Counted from the stretch's first letter, positions 9,416 through 23,806 are shown. The stretch is 24,000 nucleotides of DNA from Deltaproteobacteria bacterium (GCA_015489365.1 WFZW01000237.1:2211-26210), one strand, 5' to 3'. Numbers and translations are program-made. The notes: generated from the sequence alone by a model not told the origin.

Positions 9416-9440
9416 CTTGATCCTCTCTGAGAAATATTTC

Positions 9441-9480
9441 TGTAAATTTTCACGCGGCCTGTATACCAACACCGCGCATC
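9441..9480 (-). promoter_or_regulatory. Degenerate fifth copy of the recurrent leader element, upstream of acsB
   Basis: Transcribed strand: GATGCGCGGTGTTGGTATACAGGCCGCGTGAAAATTTACA. It retains the inner stem (CGCGG / CCGCG) and the ..GGCCGCRTGAAA.TTT block seen in the four strong copies. It ends 25 nt before the acsB ATG. Confidence 0.35.
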
Positions 9481-9534
9481 TCTTTATATGGAAGGTAAAT
9501 ATACTTCCTTACCACAAAGTGACTAGCCTCCCGG

Positions 9535-13412: not shown

Positions 13413-13805
13413 CTAACGGTGAATGGACTCAGCGTCGCTGAGTACAGAGGACATGTGCCTGGCTGCCTCCACTATTGGTTCGGTCTCGCCCCTGGATGCA
13501 AAGAACATCTCCAGCCGGGCAGGATCTATGCCCAACTCATCGAGTATCTTCTTGGCATAGCCAACCCTCTTGGCTGCCCTCTGGCTTCCAGACAGATTGT
13601 GGCATTTGTCAATCTGGCATCCGGCCACAAAGACTGCCTCTGCCCCCTGCTCAAAGGCGTCAAGCAGGGTATTGATCTCTAGCTTTCCGGTACACGGCAA
13701 CCTTTTTATCCTGAGCCCCTCAGGGACCAGGCCGGCCTTTTTCAAGGTATCCACATCGACACTTGAGGTATAATTACAACAAAAACCAAGAATTACATCG
13801 CTCAT
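13413..13805 (-). CDS. mvhD: MvhD/FlpD-family iron-sulfur protein (all-Cys paralogue)
   Basis: 130 aa with ..ILGFCCNYTS.., ..RLPCTGKLE.., ..GAEAVFVAGCQIDKCHNLSG.. (MvhD signature). The ATG overlaps the upstream stop (ATGA at 13802-13805). Confidence 0.88.
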   Translation of the reverse strand: MSDVILGFCCNYTSSVDVDTLKKAGLVPEGLRIKRLPCTGKLEINTLLDAFEQGAEAVFVAGCQIDKCHNLSGSQRAAKRVGYAKKILDELGIDPARLEMFFASRGETEPIVEAARHMSSVLSDAESIHR

Positions 13806-14353
13806 ACCATTGTCCCCTTCTCCTCAAGGGACGGTGCCAGAGAGATGGCCTCGGCAGGACATTCCAGCACACAAATACCACATCCCTTGCAAAGTTCTGG
13901 CTCTATATATGCGTAGCCCTCATCGGCAATATGGGGCGCACCGAAGGGACACAGCCTGACACAGGTTAGGCAGGCAACGCACTTGCCCGCATCTACCCTG
14001 GCAAACTGTCCAAGTGCAGCAAGCATCTCGGTGGTTACCTTGCCCCTTGCTACTGCTTCCTGCCTGAGGGCCTTGATCACGTCGCTGCAGCGTACTTGCT
14101 GGGGACAGACGGGAACACAGCTCTGGCACTGGGAACATGCCCATATCACATCCGTACCCAGAAGCTGGTCTGTAAGCCCGAGCGCTACCATGTGAACGAT
14201 CTTTCTAGGATCAAATTCCGGCACCACCTTTTCTACAGGGCACACACCACTGCATGCCCCGCAGGCAAAGCAGCGCGCTACTGTCTCACATCCTGATTGG
14301 GTGGAAATCTCCCTCTCCAACCCATGGTCCAATTTAGCTGCCTGAATAGTCAT
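13802..14353 (-). CDS. HdrC-like 2x[4Fe-4S] domain fused to a 2x[4Fe-4S] ferredoxin domain
   Basis: 183 aa with four CxxCxxCxxxCP motifs. CFACGACSGVCP and CSQCQSCVPVCP are separated by a helical spacer of about 40 aa, the HdrC-type arrangement. CVACLTCVRLCP and CKGCGICVLECP follow. Confidence 0.8.
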   Translation of the reverse strand: MTIQAAKLDHGLEREISTQSGCETVARCFACGACSGVCPVEKVVPEFDPRKIVHMVALGLTDQLLGTDVIWACSQCQSCVPVCPQQVRCSDVIKALRQEAVARGKVTTEMLAALGQFARVDAGKCVACLTCVRLCPFGAPHIADEGYAYIEPELCKGCGICVLECPAEAISLAPSLEEKGTMV

Positions 14354-14361
14354 TTTATATT

Positions 14362-14446
14362 CCCAAAACTTTCATGCGGCCCTTATCCCTGGTGCCGCAC
14401 CCTTGGTCATGAAAATACAGCCCTTACCCGAGATGTATTTTCACGG
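14362..14446 (-). promoter_or_regulatory. Recurrent leader element, copy 1 (upstream of the hdrC-like gene)
   Basis: Transcribed strand: CCGTGAAAATACATCTCGGGTAAGGGCTGTATTTTCATGACCAAGGGTGCGGCACCAGGGATAAGGGCCGCATGAAAGTTTTGGG. It fills most of the 112-nt gap between the mvhD(Sec) stop and the hdrC-like ATG. Confidence 0.6.
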
Positions 14447-14465
14447 TAAATAAACCGGACATGCC

Positions 14466-15272
14466 CTATGCCGTCATCAAGACCCAGCCGGCTTCATCCT
14501 GGCTGATCTTCTTCCTCCTGGAAAGGCCCTCCAGGATCTTTTGAATCTCGTCTCCGGATGCCCCGGTTGCCTCGGCAAGGTGACCTTCGTCCATGGCCCC
14601 CTCCTCCTTCAGCAGAATAAGCACCTCTTCGGTTATCCTCTGCTGTCTTATCGCGGGCAAAACCTTCTTTGCCACCCCTGCCTCTATAGCTTCTGGGGTG
14701 TAATCACCACCCTTGTGAAGGCCCTTTGACAGGGTGCCCAGTGAGGTGCGGGGCTTCCTGGCCGATGCAGCCCTGACTGCGGCCTTAAGACGCCTGTCGA
14801 TAACTGGCTTGGCCTCTTCGCCCTCACCGGTTCCAAGGGCACCCATCCCCTTGATTCTCTTTACATATCCCGTGATCAACTCGACAAATCGCGGGGCCTC
14901 GGCTGCAGACGCCCAGTCGAGAGACAGCCTCTCTGGCTCCACCCCTATATCCTTCAGGGTCTGACGGCAGGTCTCTGCAACTACCATGGCTTCGTAATTA
15001 CCAGACTGGTAATGACATTCACCCAAGTGTCACCCGCCTGTAAACACCCCGTCGGCACCACATCGGAAGGCCTCGAGAACAAACCGCACGTCTATGCGGC
15101 CGGTACACATCACCCTTATGACCCTGACGTTAGGTGGATACTGATACCTGGATACTCCTGCCGAATCAGCCGCTGCATAACAGCACCAGTGACAAAAAAA
15201 CCCCAATATATGTGGATCGAAGCCCTCCCGGGTCATTTCATTCTCCTTCAAGTTCGCTTTTTCTTGACTCAT
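14466..15272 (-). CDS. mvhD: MvhD/FlpD-family protein with selenocysteine (TGA at 15030-15032) and a ~125-aa C-terminal extension; 268 aa
   Basis: ORFs 15030..15272 and 14466..15026 are in frame, separated only by TGA-CAC. Readthrough gives ..[47 protein letters not shown].., the MvhD/VhuD G[C/U]HxGxCHY box. The start ATG lies 3 nt after the hdrA stop. Confidence 0.85.
14997..15013 (-). promoter_or_regulatory. Candidate SECIS hairpin for the mvhD UGA
   Basis: RNA: UGA CAC UUG GGU GAA UGU C-AUUACC-AGUCU-GGUAAU. This is a 6-7 bp stem with a GUC-containing loop, starting 16 nt after the UGA. Confidence 0.5.
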
Positions 15273-18200: not shown

Positions 18201-18314
18201 CGAGGCCTTCTTCTCCACCAGATAAACATAGTAGCCGAGTTCGGAGAGATCCAGGGCCGTCTGGACCCCTGCAACCCCTCCACCAAGCACCAATATCGCA
18301 CCGTACTGGCTCAT
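15276..18314 (-). CDS. hdrA: HdrA-like flavoprotein with two tandem HdrA-type modules and selenocysteine at codon 58 (TGA 18141-18143); 1012 aa
   Basis: The ATG at 18314 (GGAG 8 nt upstream) opens [74 protein letters not shown].., in frame with ORF 15276..18125. There are HdrA hallmarks in module 1 ([18 protein letters not shown]) and in module 2 ([13 protein letters not shown].., [18 protein letters not shown]), plus 4Fe-4S motifs [24 protein letters not shown] and [12 protein letters not shown]. Confidence 0.88.
18104..18119 (-). promoter_or_regulatory. Candidate SECIS hairpin for the hdrA UGA
   Basis: RNA: GAGGCC-GGUC-GGUCUC. This is a 6-bp stem (one G-U) with loop GGUC, starting 21 nt after the UGA. 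Confidence 0.5.
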
Positions 18315-20407: not shown

Positions 20408-20423
20408 AACCAAACTTCTCCTT

Positions 20424-20504
20424 AAACTTTCATGCAGCCCGCATACCTGTGCCGCACCCCTGGACATGGAAACATCCCCGCTGAAGTGGTTGTTTCTTCA
20501 GGGG
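20424..20504 (-). promoter_or_regulatory. Recurrent leader element, copy 2 (upstream of CODH)
   Basis: Transcribed strand: CCCCTGAAGAAACAACCACTTCAGCGGGGATGTTTCCATGTCCAGGGGTGCGGCACAGGTATGCGGGCTGCATGAAAGTTT. It is followed directly by the AAGGAG RBS. Confidence 0.6.
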
Positions 20505-21424: not shown

Positions 21425-21444
21425 AATTCCTCCTGCTCATTGGG

Positions 21445-21537
21445 TTCCAAACCTTCATGCGGCCCTAGGCCTGGTGCCGCACCCTGGGCAAGGGATGGTA
21501 CATGGTTTCCTTGCAGGGATCGGTCGAACCGCCAAGG
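21445..21537 (-). promoter_or_regulatory. Recurrent leader element, copy 3 (upstream of folD)
   Basis: Transcribed strand: CCTTGGCGGTTCGACCGATCCCTGCAAGGAAACCATGTACCATCCCTTGCCCAGGGTGCGGCACCAGGCCTAGGGCCGCATGAAGGTTTGGAA. It ends 20 nt before the folD ATG. Confidence 0.6.
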
Positions 21538-21701
21538 ATCTTATATTCAAATTTGTAAAGCCAGTCCTTTTTTTGCAAACCCCAGGCCACCTAGGACCCG
21601 ATCCATGTTATACGTAACCTACATAAAACCCCTTGTAATCATTAAGCATTTATCGAGAAAACGATAATACTAATTTCACAAGCGTGCTACGCACAATTTG
21701 T

Positions 21702-21737
21702 GGGGAAAAAAACCCCGGCCCTGGTGTCTTTTTCCCC
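21702..21737 (-). terminator. Stem-loop with an embedded U7 tract just after the fhs stop (possible terminator or stability element)
   Basis: RNA: GGGGAAAAAGACACCAGGGCCGGGGUUUUUUUCCCC. GGGGAAAAA pairs with UUUUUCCCC. It starts 16 nt after the fhs stop. This is not a canonical GC-stem plus U-tail design, hence the low confidence. Confidence 0.35.
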
Positions 21738-23517: not shown

Positions 23518-23592
23518 CGATCAAATCCTCCTTCAAAATATTCTGGACGTACAGTGACGCCGGATTAAAATACCATTTCTAGGGGGTAGCTT

Positions 23593-23674
23593 CCAAACCT
23601 TCATGCAGCCCGTATCCCCGTGGCTGTCCCCTGAGCATGAAGATACCGCCTTTGCCCAGGGTGTATTTTCACGC
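23593..23674 (-). promoter_or_regulatory. Recurrent leader element, copy 4 (upstream of fhs)
   Basis: Transcribed strand: GCGTGAAAATACACCCTGGGCAAAGGCGGTATCTTCATGCTCAGGGGACAGCCACGGGGATACGGGCTGCATGAAGGTTTGG. It is bracketed by a perfect 9-bp inverted repeat (23579-23587 / 23706-23714). Confidence 0.6.
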
Positions 23675-23806
23675 TAAATTGTGCAACCCCATGGCATGAG
23701 ATACAACCCCCTAGAGAGAATGTATTTTCGAAACATACACCTTTGCCTATGCATCGGATGCACCGAAAGATGAAAAGAGCCCGGGCATGGCGGAATCTTC
23801 CGCCAA

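What the first reader, a model, noticed from the sequence alone, without database searches (positions are those of the whole stretch)
14362..14446. Copy 1 has mutually exclusive helices, a switch-like architecture
Segment B (UGUAUUUUCAUG, 14408-14419) can pair upstream with segment A (GUGAAAAUACA, 14434-14444), giving 11 bp including one G-U and a 14-nt loop. Alternatively it can pair downstream with segment C (CAUGAAAG, 14369-14376), giving 8 bp that close the conserved G-rich core. It cannot do both. The same A/B/C arrangement, with the same 16-nt spacing between GAAAATAC and GTATYTTC, recurs in the fhs copy (A 23663-23672, B 23635-23646, C 23598-23606). Segment C ends only about 15 nt before the hdrC-like start codon, which has a weak purine RBS (GGGAA).
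Basis: seen in the sequence. Interest (0 to 1): 0.7.

Follow-up and report, generated by a model that had tools for sequence, protein, structure and literature searches.

The report
Mobile hairpin repeat, not a riboswitch
The "switch-like" RNA in front of the hdrC-like gene is one copy of a roughly 90-base hairpin-forming repeat that is scattered across related genomes, so it is most likely a small mobile element and not a dedicated regulator of this carbon-fixation operon.

Summary
On the minus strand, B (14408-14419) can pair with A (14434-14444) or with C (14369-14376). The fhs leader has the same layout.

The interpretation does not hold.
- No Rfam family matches.
- The core (CCAGGGGUGCGGCAC…GGGCYGCAUGAARGUUU) occurs five times in the window, upstream of fhs, folD, cooS, hdrC-like and acsB.
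- Orthologous Wood-Ljungdahl clusters in three related genomes have no copy. A sister genome (86-89% DNA identity) lacks the hdrC copy.
- One Desulfobacterales MAG carries the whole element on at least 12 contigs. Six full copies are 99.3% identical, with unrelated flanks and unrelated neighbouring genes.
- Four of those copies are antisense or lie 3' of genes. One sits behind a terminator between convergent genes. Six contigs break inside the element.
- It has no terminal inverted repeats and no target duplication. Its 5' flank is a conserved TTTA followed by C.
- Covariation does not exceed shuffled controls.
- Copy 1 strongly favours the A:B state (-36.3 against -20.3 kcal/mol).

Best reading: a MITE-like or PATE-like dispersed repeat whose helices belong to the element itself. 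Secondary domestication as an mRNA element in this operon is not excluded (about 0.15-0.2).

The parts
14360..14450 (-). Copy 1: full-length element between the mvhD-like stop (14466) and the hdrC-like start (14353). It runs from the 5' junction TTTA|CCGUG to the 3' end GCAUGAAAGUUUUGG.
   Evidence: nhmmer hit 14453-14357, E 5.7e-28. CM R1 hit 14360-14421, 67.4 bits. Sequence read.
14434..14444 (-). Arm A (GUGAAAAUACA), the 5' arm of the left-end hairpin.
   Evidence: Sequence identical in all CAZUIH01 copies.
14408..14419 (-). Arm B (UGUAUUUUCAUG). It pairs with A (11 bp including one G-U) or with C (8 bp including one G-U).
   Evidence: Constrained folds.
14376..14398 (-). Inner GC hairpin P2: GCGGC (14394-14398) paired with GCCGC (14376-14380), with a 13-nt G-rich loop.
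   Evidence: Present in all five window cores.
14369..14376 (-). Arm C (CAUGAAAG). It ends 15 nt upstream of the hdrC-like ATG.
23589..23679 (-). fhs-leader copy, full length: A 23662-23672, B 23636-23647, P2 CAGC/GCUG, C 23598-23605.
   Evidence: nhmmer E 8.4e-28. CM 59.2 bits. About 60 nt of this unit is missing from the sister genome.
23695..23730 (-). Second, partial left-end-type hairpin (CGAAAAUACA…UGUAUCUCAUG) immediately upstream of the fhs copy. This looks like a nested or tandem older copy.
   Evidence: (E 0.49).
21443..21503 (-). Core-only copy 27 nt upstream of the folD start (21424).
   Evidence: (family D1), (55.2 bits). An orthologous copy is present in the sister genome.
20418..20499 (-). 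Diverged full-length copy upstream of cooS (true start 20407). Its A-like arm is CUGAAGAAACA.
   Evidence: 20499-20423, E 2.6e-8; 69.1 bits.
9438..9498 (-). Degenerate core upstream of acsB (true start 9415).
   Evidence: (49.3 bits).
13802..14353 (-). hdrC-like 4Fe-4S protein gene, immediately downstream of copy 1.
   Evidence: Pfam Fer4 families. Orthologues.
14466..15272 (-). mvhD-like gene upstream of copy 1. It is one ORF with an in-frame TGA at 15032-15030.

Best explanation
Copy 1 is one insertion of a small non-coding dispersed repeat, about 81-95 nt long. The repeat is mobile or was formerly mobile, and it occurs in Thermodesulfobacteriota/Desulfobacterales genomes.

Anatomy of the element:
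- a GC-rich right-end hairpin, P2
- a conserved 3' tail, GCAUGAARGUUUGG, whose first part (C) is complementary to B

The alternative helices are therefore built into the element. They did not evolve as an expression platform for hdrC or fhs.

The element has no terminal inverted repeats and makes no target duplication. It sits 3' of a conserved TTTA followed by C. The most likely way it moves (inferred, not shown) is in trans, as single-stranded DNA, by a hairpin-recognising transposase of the IS200/IS605 (HUH/Y1) type. That would make it a PATE-type ends-only element.

In this lineage, copies accumulated in the spacers of the Wood-Ljungdahl operon and are co-transcribed with it. As RNA, copy 1 should sit almost entirely in the two-hairpin state (A:B plus the P2 hairpin). 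Any effect on hdrC-like expression would then be a constitutive structural one, such as mRNA processing or stability or partial occlusion of the weak RBS. It would not be ligand-controlled switching.
For: Shown:
- No Rfam family matches at the gathering or at permissive thresholds.
- There are five cores in the 24-kb window, all on the minus strand.
- A CM search with filters off finds no core in the orthologous clusters L003, L004 and L005. Their mvhD-hdrC spacers are 19-30 nt and two of their fhs leaders lack the element.
- The sister genome GCA_024275145.1 (86-89% DNA identity) lacks the hdrC copy, lacks about 60 nt of the fhs unit, and has an extra ~63 nt at the acsB site.
- The genome scan recovered the element on 12 contigs of one MAG, CAZUIH01. 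Six of those contigs end about 55 nt inside it, the size of a typical assembler k-mer overlap at a repeat (inference).
- Six full copies there are 99.3% identical over 81 nt, while their flanks are 26-35% identical.
- The neighbouring genes there are unrelated: FBPase, hisH/F, a radical-SAM methyltransferase, a ClC channel, PrmA, a T2SS ATPase and a RimK-like protein.
- Four of the 12 copies are antisense or lie 3' of genes. One lies after a rho-independent terminator between convergent genes. The relative in L056 is antisense between an aminotransferase gene and a histidine kinase gene.
- There is no TIR and no consistent TSD. The 5' flank is WWTTTA|CCGTG in 6 of 6 copies.
- Between lineages the stems are sequence-identical and the loops differ.
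- Copy 1 folds at -36.3 kcal/mol for A:B against -20.3 for B:C. The MFE of the whole spacer is the A:B state.

From the literature: IS200/IS605 elements lack TIRs and TSDs, insert 3' of a fixed tetra- or pentanucleotide, need a hairpin at each end, can have dissimilar left and right hairpins and competing hairpins, and give rise to ends-only PATEs (PMC7290912).
Against: - No transposase or autonomous parent element was found. The only IS that surfaced (IS481-like, L068) resembles the left hairpin alone, and its ends do not match.
- In IS608 the cleavage site lies well upstream of the left hairpin. Here TTAC abuts the hairpin. The TTTA could also simply be part of the element.
- In the sister MAG, the strict core pattern hit only the Wood-Ljungdahl cluster.
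- All five window copies are sense and lie 15-72 nt upstream of start codons.
- Three cores (folD, cooS, acsB) are retained orthologously across about 13% DNA divergence. The stretch from core to ATG is 93-95% identical. Local function is therefore possible.
- The total copy number in the window organism's own genome is unknown.
Confidence: 0.7

Rival explanations
1. Domesticated repeat. Copies that landed in the operon have been co-opted as intercistronic mRNA elements. These could be 5' stabiliser hairpins, RNase processing sites, or binding sites for a trans-acting protein or sRNA. They would set or coordinate the output of fhs, folD, cooS, hdrC-like and acsB. The A:B/B:C alternative might contribute by exposing or hiding the GCAUGAARGUUU tail or the weak RBS.
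For: - There are five copies in one 24-kb operon, all sense, with the core ending 15-31 nt before four start codons and 72 nt before fhs.
- The folD, cooS and acsB cores are orthologously retained in a genome with only 86-89% DNA identity. The core-to-ATG stretches are 93-95% identical.
- In old copies the left hairpin has decayed while the core is kept.
- In the sister MAG the strict core pattern hit only this cluster.
- In copy 1 the MFE stem CCAAGG/UUUUGG overlaps the putative SD.
Against: - Within the core itself, identity between the two genomes (about 90%, 8 differences in 81 nt) is close to the genome average.
- The hdrC copy is dispensable, because the sister genome keeps the same RBS and start without it.
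- Relatives at about 70% protein identity run the same operon with no copy.
- There is no covariation signal.
- The basal stem that touches the RBS is specific to copy 1.
- The sense orientation could also come from strand-specific insertion or from selection against antisense copies.
Confidence: 0.2
2. Metabolite-sensing riboswitch (for example for a folate or C1 intermediate). Its aptamer would be the G-rich core closed by B:C, and its expression platform would be the competing A:B helix.
For: - The downstream genes in the window are all C1/folate-pathway genes.
- The helices are mutually exclusive.
- The fhs copy has U-A to C-G in B:C and G-C to A-U in P2 relative to copy 1 (read directly from the sequences).
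Against: - No Rfam match.
- Absent from orthologous leaders.
- In another genome it has 12 or more near-identical copies next to unrelated genes, including antisense and post-terminator positions.
- The loops vary while the stems are fixed.
- Covariation equals the shuffled controls.
- The proposed aptamer-closing state is 16 kcal/mol less stable than the competitor in copy 1.
Confidence: 0.03
3. DNA-level operator. The inverted repeat TGAAAATACA-N14-TGTATTTTCA, or the palindrome GTGCGGCAC, would be a binding site for a transcription factor controlling internal promoters of the cluster.
For: - The 10-bp inverted repeat is perfect.
- GAAAATACA is over-represented in the window: 12 matches at one mismatch or fewer against 3.8 expected.
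- The stems are conserved in sequence, not by covariation.
Against: - Promoter-like sites are not enriched and none sits at the copies.
- Three of the five window copies lack or have degraded the AU-rich inverted repeat.
- The same sequence is scattered next to unrelated genes, and between convergent genes, in CAZUIH01.
- The conserved unit is about 85 nt, far larger than an operator.
Confidence: 0.05

Closest known systems
PATEs: ends-only derivatives of IS200/IS605-family insertion sequences (mobilised by TnpA, an HUH/Y1 transposase)
   Same: - Short and non-coding.
- No terminal inverted repeats and no target-site duplication.
- A hairpin near each end.
- A fixed short sequence (TTAC-like) immediately 5' of the left end.
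- Left and right hairpins may differ, and competing hairpins occur in this family (PMC7290912).
- Near-identical multi-copy spread in one genome.
   Different: - No TnpA, TnpB or parent IS was found.
- The left hairpin starts 1-2 nt after TTAC, not some distance away as in IS608 (from memory).
- At about 85 nt it is smaller than most described PATEs.
- Membership is unproven.
REP/BIME, ERIC, Correia (CREE/NEMIS), BOX and RUP: intergenic hairpin repeats of bacteria (from general knowledge)
   Same: - Small dispersed intergenic repeats.
- Often co-transcribed inside operons, where they fold into stable hairpins.
- Variable presence between close strains.
- Occasionally affect mRNA stability, processing or translation of neighbouring genes.
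   Different: - No sequence relationship.
- Correia, ERIC and RUP have terminal inverted repeats and TA or other duplications, which are absent here.
- REPs are single 20-40-nt palindromes with a GTAG-type head and are linked to RAYT genes, which was not examined here.
Riboswitch expression platforms (for example THF-I RF01831, THF-II, ZTP/pfl) upstream of folate and C1 genes
   Same: - Sits in 5' leaders or intercistronic spacers of folate/C1 genes in this window.
- Two mutually exclusive helices share one strand.
   Different: - No match to any Rfam model.
- Not conserved in orthologous leaders.
- Multi-copy, with unrelated neighbours elsewhere.
- Loops are variable and stems are fixed.
- No covariation.
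- The energetics are strongly one-sided.
Start-codon-sequestering hairpins at the left ends of insertion sequences (IS10/IS50/IS200-type translational control). Here, an IS481-like family found in L068, L078 and L083.
   Same: The L068 IS has TTACC-CGAAAATACAC-loop-GTGTATTTTCATG, with the transposase ATG inside the 3' arm. This is 78% identical over 45 nt to the element's left end.
   Different: - 21 of those nucleotides were imposed by the search pattern.
- The hairpin sequence varies within that IS family.
- Its 25-bp terminal inverted repeats and its right end have no counterpart in the element.
- No such transposase is present in the fetched loci.

Membership tests
Riboswitch / cis-regulatory leader RNA | Match to a curated RNA family | tested here: not met
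   Rfam 15 gave no hits at gathering thresholds over the whole window. Only noise (E > 1) appeared at permissive thresholds on both copies.
Riboswitch / cis-regulatory leader RNA | Conserved in orthologous leaders of related species | tested here: not met
   L003, L004 and L005 have 19-30-nt mvhD-hdrC spacers, and the L003 and L004 fhs leaders lack the element. A CM search with filters off finds nothing in them. The sister genome lacks the hdrC copy.
Riboswitch / cis-regulatory leader RNA | Consistent sense position upstream of a functionally coherent gene set | tested here: not met
   Met inside the window (five C1 genes). In CAZUIH01 the neighbours are unrelated and 4 of 12 copies are antisense or 3' of genes. 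L056 is antisense.
Riboswitch / cis-regulatory leader RNA | Structure supported by covariation, with conserved loops and junctions | tested here: not met
   On alignment A11, 89.7% of cells are paired against 89.6% in shuffles, and one double change is seen against 0.9 expected. Stems are identical and loops differ between lineages.
Riboswitch / cis-regulatory leader RNA | Ligand binding with a structural switch | not testable with these tools
   Energetics only: A:B -36.3 against B:C -20.3 kcal/mol for copy 1.
MITE (classical, DDE-transposase derived) | Small, non-coding, multi-copy, near-identical copies with unrelated flanks | tested here: met
   81-nt body at 99.3% identity in 6 full copies, on at least 12 contigs. 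Flanks are 26-35% identical.
MITE (classical, DDE-transposase derived) | Terminal inverted repeats | tested here: not met
   The best local alignment of the first 35 nt against the reverse complement of the last 35 nt is a 6-nt internal match.
MITE (classical, DDE-transposase derived) | Target-site duplication | tested here: not met
   No consistent direct repeat flanks the six full copies.
MITE (classical, DDE-transposase derived) | Presence/absence polymorphism between related genomes | tested here: met
   The hdrC, fhs and acsB sites differ between the window and GCA_024275145.1. No clean empty site was recovered.
IS200/IS605-derived PATE | No TIR, no TSD, and a hairpin near each end | tested here: met
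   Family features taken from PMC7290912.
IS200/IS605-derived PATE | Insertion 3' of a fixed tetra- or pentanucleotide | tested here: inconclusive
   TTTA|C precedes 6 of 6 CAZUIH01 copies and copy 1 (TTTAG in the fhs copy), with conservation decaying further upstream. Without an empty site, this cannot be told apart from element sequence.
IS200/IS605-derived PATE | Cognate TnpA (Y1 HUH) transposase or full-length parent in the same genomes | not tested
   Only 8-kb stretches around the copies were available and collection scans were exhausted. No transposase lies in the window.
REP/BIME with RAYT | 20-40-nt palindromic units with a conserved tetranucleotide head, hundreds of copies, and a linked RAYT gene | not tested
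   The unit here is about 85 nt with two different hairpins. Genome-wide copy number and RAYT presence could not be assessed.

The most novel reading that the evidence does not exclude
A mobile hairpin repeat has been domesticated in one Thermodesulfobacteriota lineage as a shared intercistronic RNA module. It sits in front of five Wood-Ljungdahl cistrons (fhs, folD, cooS, hdrC-like, acsB). A single trans-acting factor, or the element's own bistable A/B/C fold, would coordinate translation or segmental mRNA stability across the whole acetyl-CoA pathway operon.
Probability: 0.15. Interest if true: 0.6.

Novelty: new member of a known kind. Interest (0 to 1): 0.3.

Why it matters
It removes a false riboswitch lead. 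A two-copy motif upstream of folate/C1 genes with mutually exclusive helices looks like a new metabolite sensor. Comparative data show it is instead a dispersed repeat.

The repeat family itself appears to be undescribed. It gave no Rfam, plasmid-database or full-text sequence match.

It is a compact example of a repeat without TIRs or TSDs that has colonised the spacers of a central carbon-fixation operon. It breaks metagenome assemblies at these sites.

If the copies turn out to be co-opted, they would offer a tractable case of mobile-element-derived post-transcriptional wiring in uncultivated anaerobes. That remains a minority possibility.

Tried and rejected
- **Rfam:** searched at gathering and permissive thresholds, nothing found.
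- **Sigma-54 or sigma-70 promoter, or a terminator, inside the element:** consensus scans are at chance level and none coincides with a copy. The GG-N-GC spacing does not fit sigma-54 (by eye).
- **CsrA-type GGA loop:** not conserved among the copies (by eye).
- **Small ORF in the element:** a 12-codon ORF exists only in copy 1, and the CAZUIH01 version stops after 2 codons.
- **Parent IS:** the metagenome scan for the left hairpin surfaced an abundant IS481-like IS (L068) with a similar start-codon hairpin. Its TIRs and right end do not match, and tblastn finds no such transposase near any copy. I kept it only as a weak lead.
- **TIR and TSD tests:** negative.
- **Covariation test on a CM-based alignment:** no signal.
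- **Empty-site recovery through the T2SS ATPase next to the L032 copy:** the closest other genome is only 79% identical in protein, and the one 100% hit carries the element too.
- **Plasmid database and full-text sequence searches:** no hit.
- **The other 32 genome-scan loci outside CAZUIH01 and JAJRZR01:** these match about the 28 hits I expected by chance for the pattern, and they show no similarity beyond the pattern itself.

Full report
**Context.** All genes in the window lie on the minus strand and form a Wood-Ljungdahl cluster (Pfam). In transcription order they are:
- fhs (23517-21754)
- folD (21424-20537)
- cooS/CODH (true start 20407)
- hdrA-like
- mvhD-like (15272-14466)
- the finding (14362-14446)
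- hdrC-like (14353-13802)
- mvhD, metV
- a MetF-TPR-CdhD fusion
- acsB, acsC, acsE
- a formate dehydrogenase

The sequence comes from a metagenome scaffold (ENA ERZ23495249, 56.8 kb).

**Observation.** I read the minus strand.
- A is GUGAAAAUACA (14434-14444), B is UGUAUUUUCAUG (14408-14419) and C is CAUGAAAG (14369-14376).
- The repeat finder reports A:B as a perfect 10-nt inverted repeat with a 14-nt gap, and B:C as a perfect 7-nt one. One G-U pair extends each helix.
- B is shared, so the helices exclude each other.
- C ends 15 nt before the ATG.
- The fhs leader has the same arrangement with the same 16-nt spacing.

**First surprise: five copies, not two.** A repeat search found the core (CCAGGGGUGCGGCAC…GGGCYGCAUGAARGUUU) upstream of folD and cooS as well (family D1). 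I built a covariance model of the core and ran it with filters off. It finds exactly five cores in the window:

| Site | Coordinates |
|---|---|
| fhs | 23589-23649 |
| folD | 21443-21503 |
| cooS | 20418-20478 |
| hdrC-like | 14360-14421 |
| acsB (degenerate) | 9438-9498 |

- Only the hdrC and fhs copies keep a good A arm.
- The cooS copy has a decayed one, and the folD and acsB copies have none.
- The fhs leader also carries a second, partial left-type hairpin at 23695-23730.

**Second surprise: orthologous leaders lack it.**
- I fetched clusters with the same gene order from three relatives at about 70% HdrC-like identity. These are L003 (GCA_054007995), L004 (Dissulfurirhabdus thermomarina) and L005.
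- Their mvhD-hdrC spacers are 19-30 nt. The L003 and L004 fhs leaders show no element. The model finds no core anywhere in these loci.
- A sister genome, GCA_024275145.1 (L006 and L012), is 86-89% identical in DNA. It keeps the folD, cooS and acsB cores.
- At the hdrC site it has a different, shorter sequence. In the fhs leader it lacks about 60 nt that correspond to one element unit. At the acsB site it has an extra ~63 nt.
- A conserved promoter-like GGGATTGACAAG precedes fhs in all four genomes. The leader is 116-190 nt in the distant relatives and about 300 nt here, and the element copies account for the difference.

**Third and decisive: the element is a dispersed repeat elsewhere.**
- A pattern scan of 185,579 species-representative genomes returned 45 loci. 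About 28 hits are expected by chance for that pattern. The loci outside two genomes show no similarity beyond the pattern itself.
- Twelve loci are different contigs of a single MAG, CAZUIH01 (an uncultured Desulfobacterales bacterium).
- There the whole element is TTTA|CCGTGAAAATACACACTGCGGCGCTGTATTTTCATGCCTTAGGGGTGCGGCACGGATGTACGGGCCGCATGAARGTTTGGG. It is 99.3% identical among six full copies, while flanks are 26-35% identical.
- Six contigs end 53-56 nt inside it, which is what a de Bruijn assembler does at a repeat longer than k.
- The neighbouring genes are unrelated to each other: FBPase, hisH/F, a radical-SAM methyltransferase, a ClC channel, PrmA, a T2SS ATPase and a RimK-like protein.
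- Eight copies are sense-upstream of a gene. Four are antisense or 3' of genes. One lies just after a rho-independent terminator between convergent genes, and it is seen in two independent assemblies.
- A metagenome scan for the left hairpin gave two more diverged relatives, L056 and L064. They keep the A/B/C layout with a different inner hairpin. L056 is antisense between an aminotransferase gene and a histidine kinase gene.

**Anatomy of the element.**
- It has no terminal inverted repeats and no consistent target duplication.
- Its 5' flank reads WWTTTA immediately before CCGTG in 6 of 6 copies, with conservation decaying outward.
- Between the window lineage and CAZUIH01, arms A and B, the P2 strands and the GCAUGAA tail are identical in sequence, whereas both hairpin loops differ. 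This pattern is expected for hairpins recognised as sequence. It is the reverse of a ligand-binding aptamer.
- On a model-based alignment of 12 distinct copies, pairing (89.7%) and double changes (1) equal the shuffled controls. So there is no covariation support. The two compensatory-looking changes in the fhs copy are anecdotal.

**Energetics.**

| Copy | A:B state (kcal/mol) | B:C state (kcal/mol) |
|---|---|---|
| Copy 1 (hdrC) | -36.3 | -20.3 |
| fhs | -29.5 | -24.1 |
| CAZUIH01 | -30.6 | -20.3 |
| L056 | -29.3 | -27.1 |
| L064 | -23.4 | -24.5 |

- The MFE of the whole 112-nt spacer is the A:B state, with a shuffle z-score of -2.6.
- In that state the 3' half forms a second hairpin. In copy 1 its basal stem (CCAAGG/UUUUGG) touches the weak GGGAA RBS. 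That stem uses flank sequence specific to this copy.
- The sister genome keeps the same RBS and start without the element.

**Interpretation.** I conclude that copy 1 is an insertion of a small dispersed repeat, and that the A:B, P2 and B:C helices are intrinsic to that element.
- What is shown: it is multi-copy, its copies are near-identical, its flanks are unrelated, its presence varies between close genomes, and it lacks TIRs and TSDs.
- What is inferred: that it moves as single-stranded DNA through an IS200/IS605-type transposase acting in trans, as a PATE.
- The inference rests on three features: the missing TIRs and TSDs, a hairpin near each end, and the fixed TTAC-like 5' neighbour. These match that family as described in PMC7290912, which also reports dissimilar left and right hairpins and mutually exclusive hairpins at element ends.
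- No transposase or parent element was found, so I put that sub-claim at about 0.25.
- An IS481-like IS (L068) has a similar hairpin around its start codon, but its ends do not match.

**Residual case for function.**
- All five window copies are sense and sit close to start codons.
- Three are retained across about 13% DNA divergence. The stretch from core to ATG is 93-95% identical.
- In the sister MAG the strict pattern hit only this cluster.
- This keeps open a secondary role as an intercistronic mRNA element, at about 0.15-0.2.
- Against it, the core itself is only about 90% identical, which is near the genome average. The hdrC copy is dispensable in the sister genome.
- A metabolite riboswitch (about 0.03) and a DNA operator (about 0.05) are poorly supported.

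**Verdict.**
- The element is a new member of a known kind, the bacterial intergenic hairpin repeats (MITE/PATE/REP-like).
- Its interest is modest.

Noticed in passing
window 15032-15030, 2412-2410, 18143-18141 (minus strand): Three genes of the cluster have in-frame TGA codons at classic selenocysteine positions: mvhD-like (GVFTGG*HLGECH), fdhA-like (CARV*HAPS) and hdrA-like (NDCSL*ILAPK). Mechanical ORF calls therefore split these genes. The real hdrA-like start is near 18314, which shrinks the cooS-hdrA spacer.
   Followed up: partly
window 12729-9535 (minus strand): A 1064-aa fusion protein combines MTHFR (MetF), TPR repeats and a CdhD-type corrinoid Fe-S subunit domain. It is conserved in L003, L005 and L006. 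L004 has a 959-aa version in which no TPR domain was reported.
   Followed up: no
window 23856-23845; L003 ~921-933; L004 ~921-933; L012 ~4618-4606: A promoter-like GGGATTGACAAG (with a TTGACA -35) upstream of fhs is conserved across four genomes. The distance to the fhs ATG grows from 116-190 nt in the distant relatives to about 300 nt in the window lineage. Element copies account for the difference.
   Followed up: partly
L068 1-1409; L078, L080, L081, L083-L085: A very abundant IS481-like insertion sequence, with more than 8000 homologues that sit mostly on ~1.4-kb contigs. It has ~25-bp terminal inverted repeats (TGCCTCAT…AAATGTTACCC), an internal repeat of GTTACCC, and the transposase start codon buried in a hairpin whose sequence covaries between members.
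   Followed up: partly
L064 1-240 (minus strand); L052 2240-2420: L064 carries two tandem units related to the element: CCGAAAAUAC…UUUUCAUG…GCAUGAAAG, followed by a second CCGAAAAUACC… unit. L052 has a tandem array of ~50-nt units containing GTATTTTCATGG.
   Followed up: no
L032 6230-6290 / L086 4280-4345: About 30 nt upstream of one CAZUIH01 copy, the flank contains TCCCAAACTT. This is the reverse complement of the element's 3' end AAGTTTGGGA. It is seen in one copy only, so it may be chance or the remnant of a longer form with inverted ends.
   Followed up: no
3' flanks of CAZUIH01 copies (L036, L051, L033, L035): Several copies are followed within 0-4 nt by ATGAAR or TGAAA, which resembles arms A and C of the element. 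This may be a target-site preference.
   Followed up: no
window 21700-21735 (minus strand): Just after the fhs stop there is a GC stem followed by a U-run (GGCCGGGGUUUUUUUCCCC), conserved in the sister genome. It looks like a terminator or attenuator between fhs and folD, although the simple scan did not list it.
   Followed up: no
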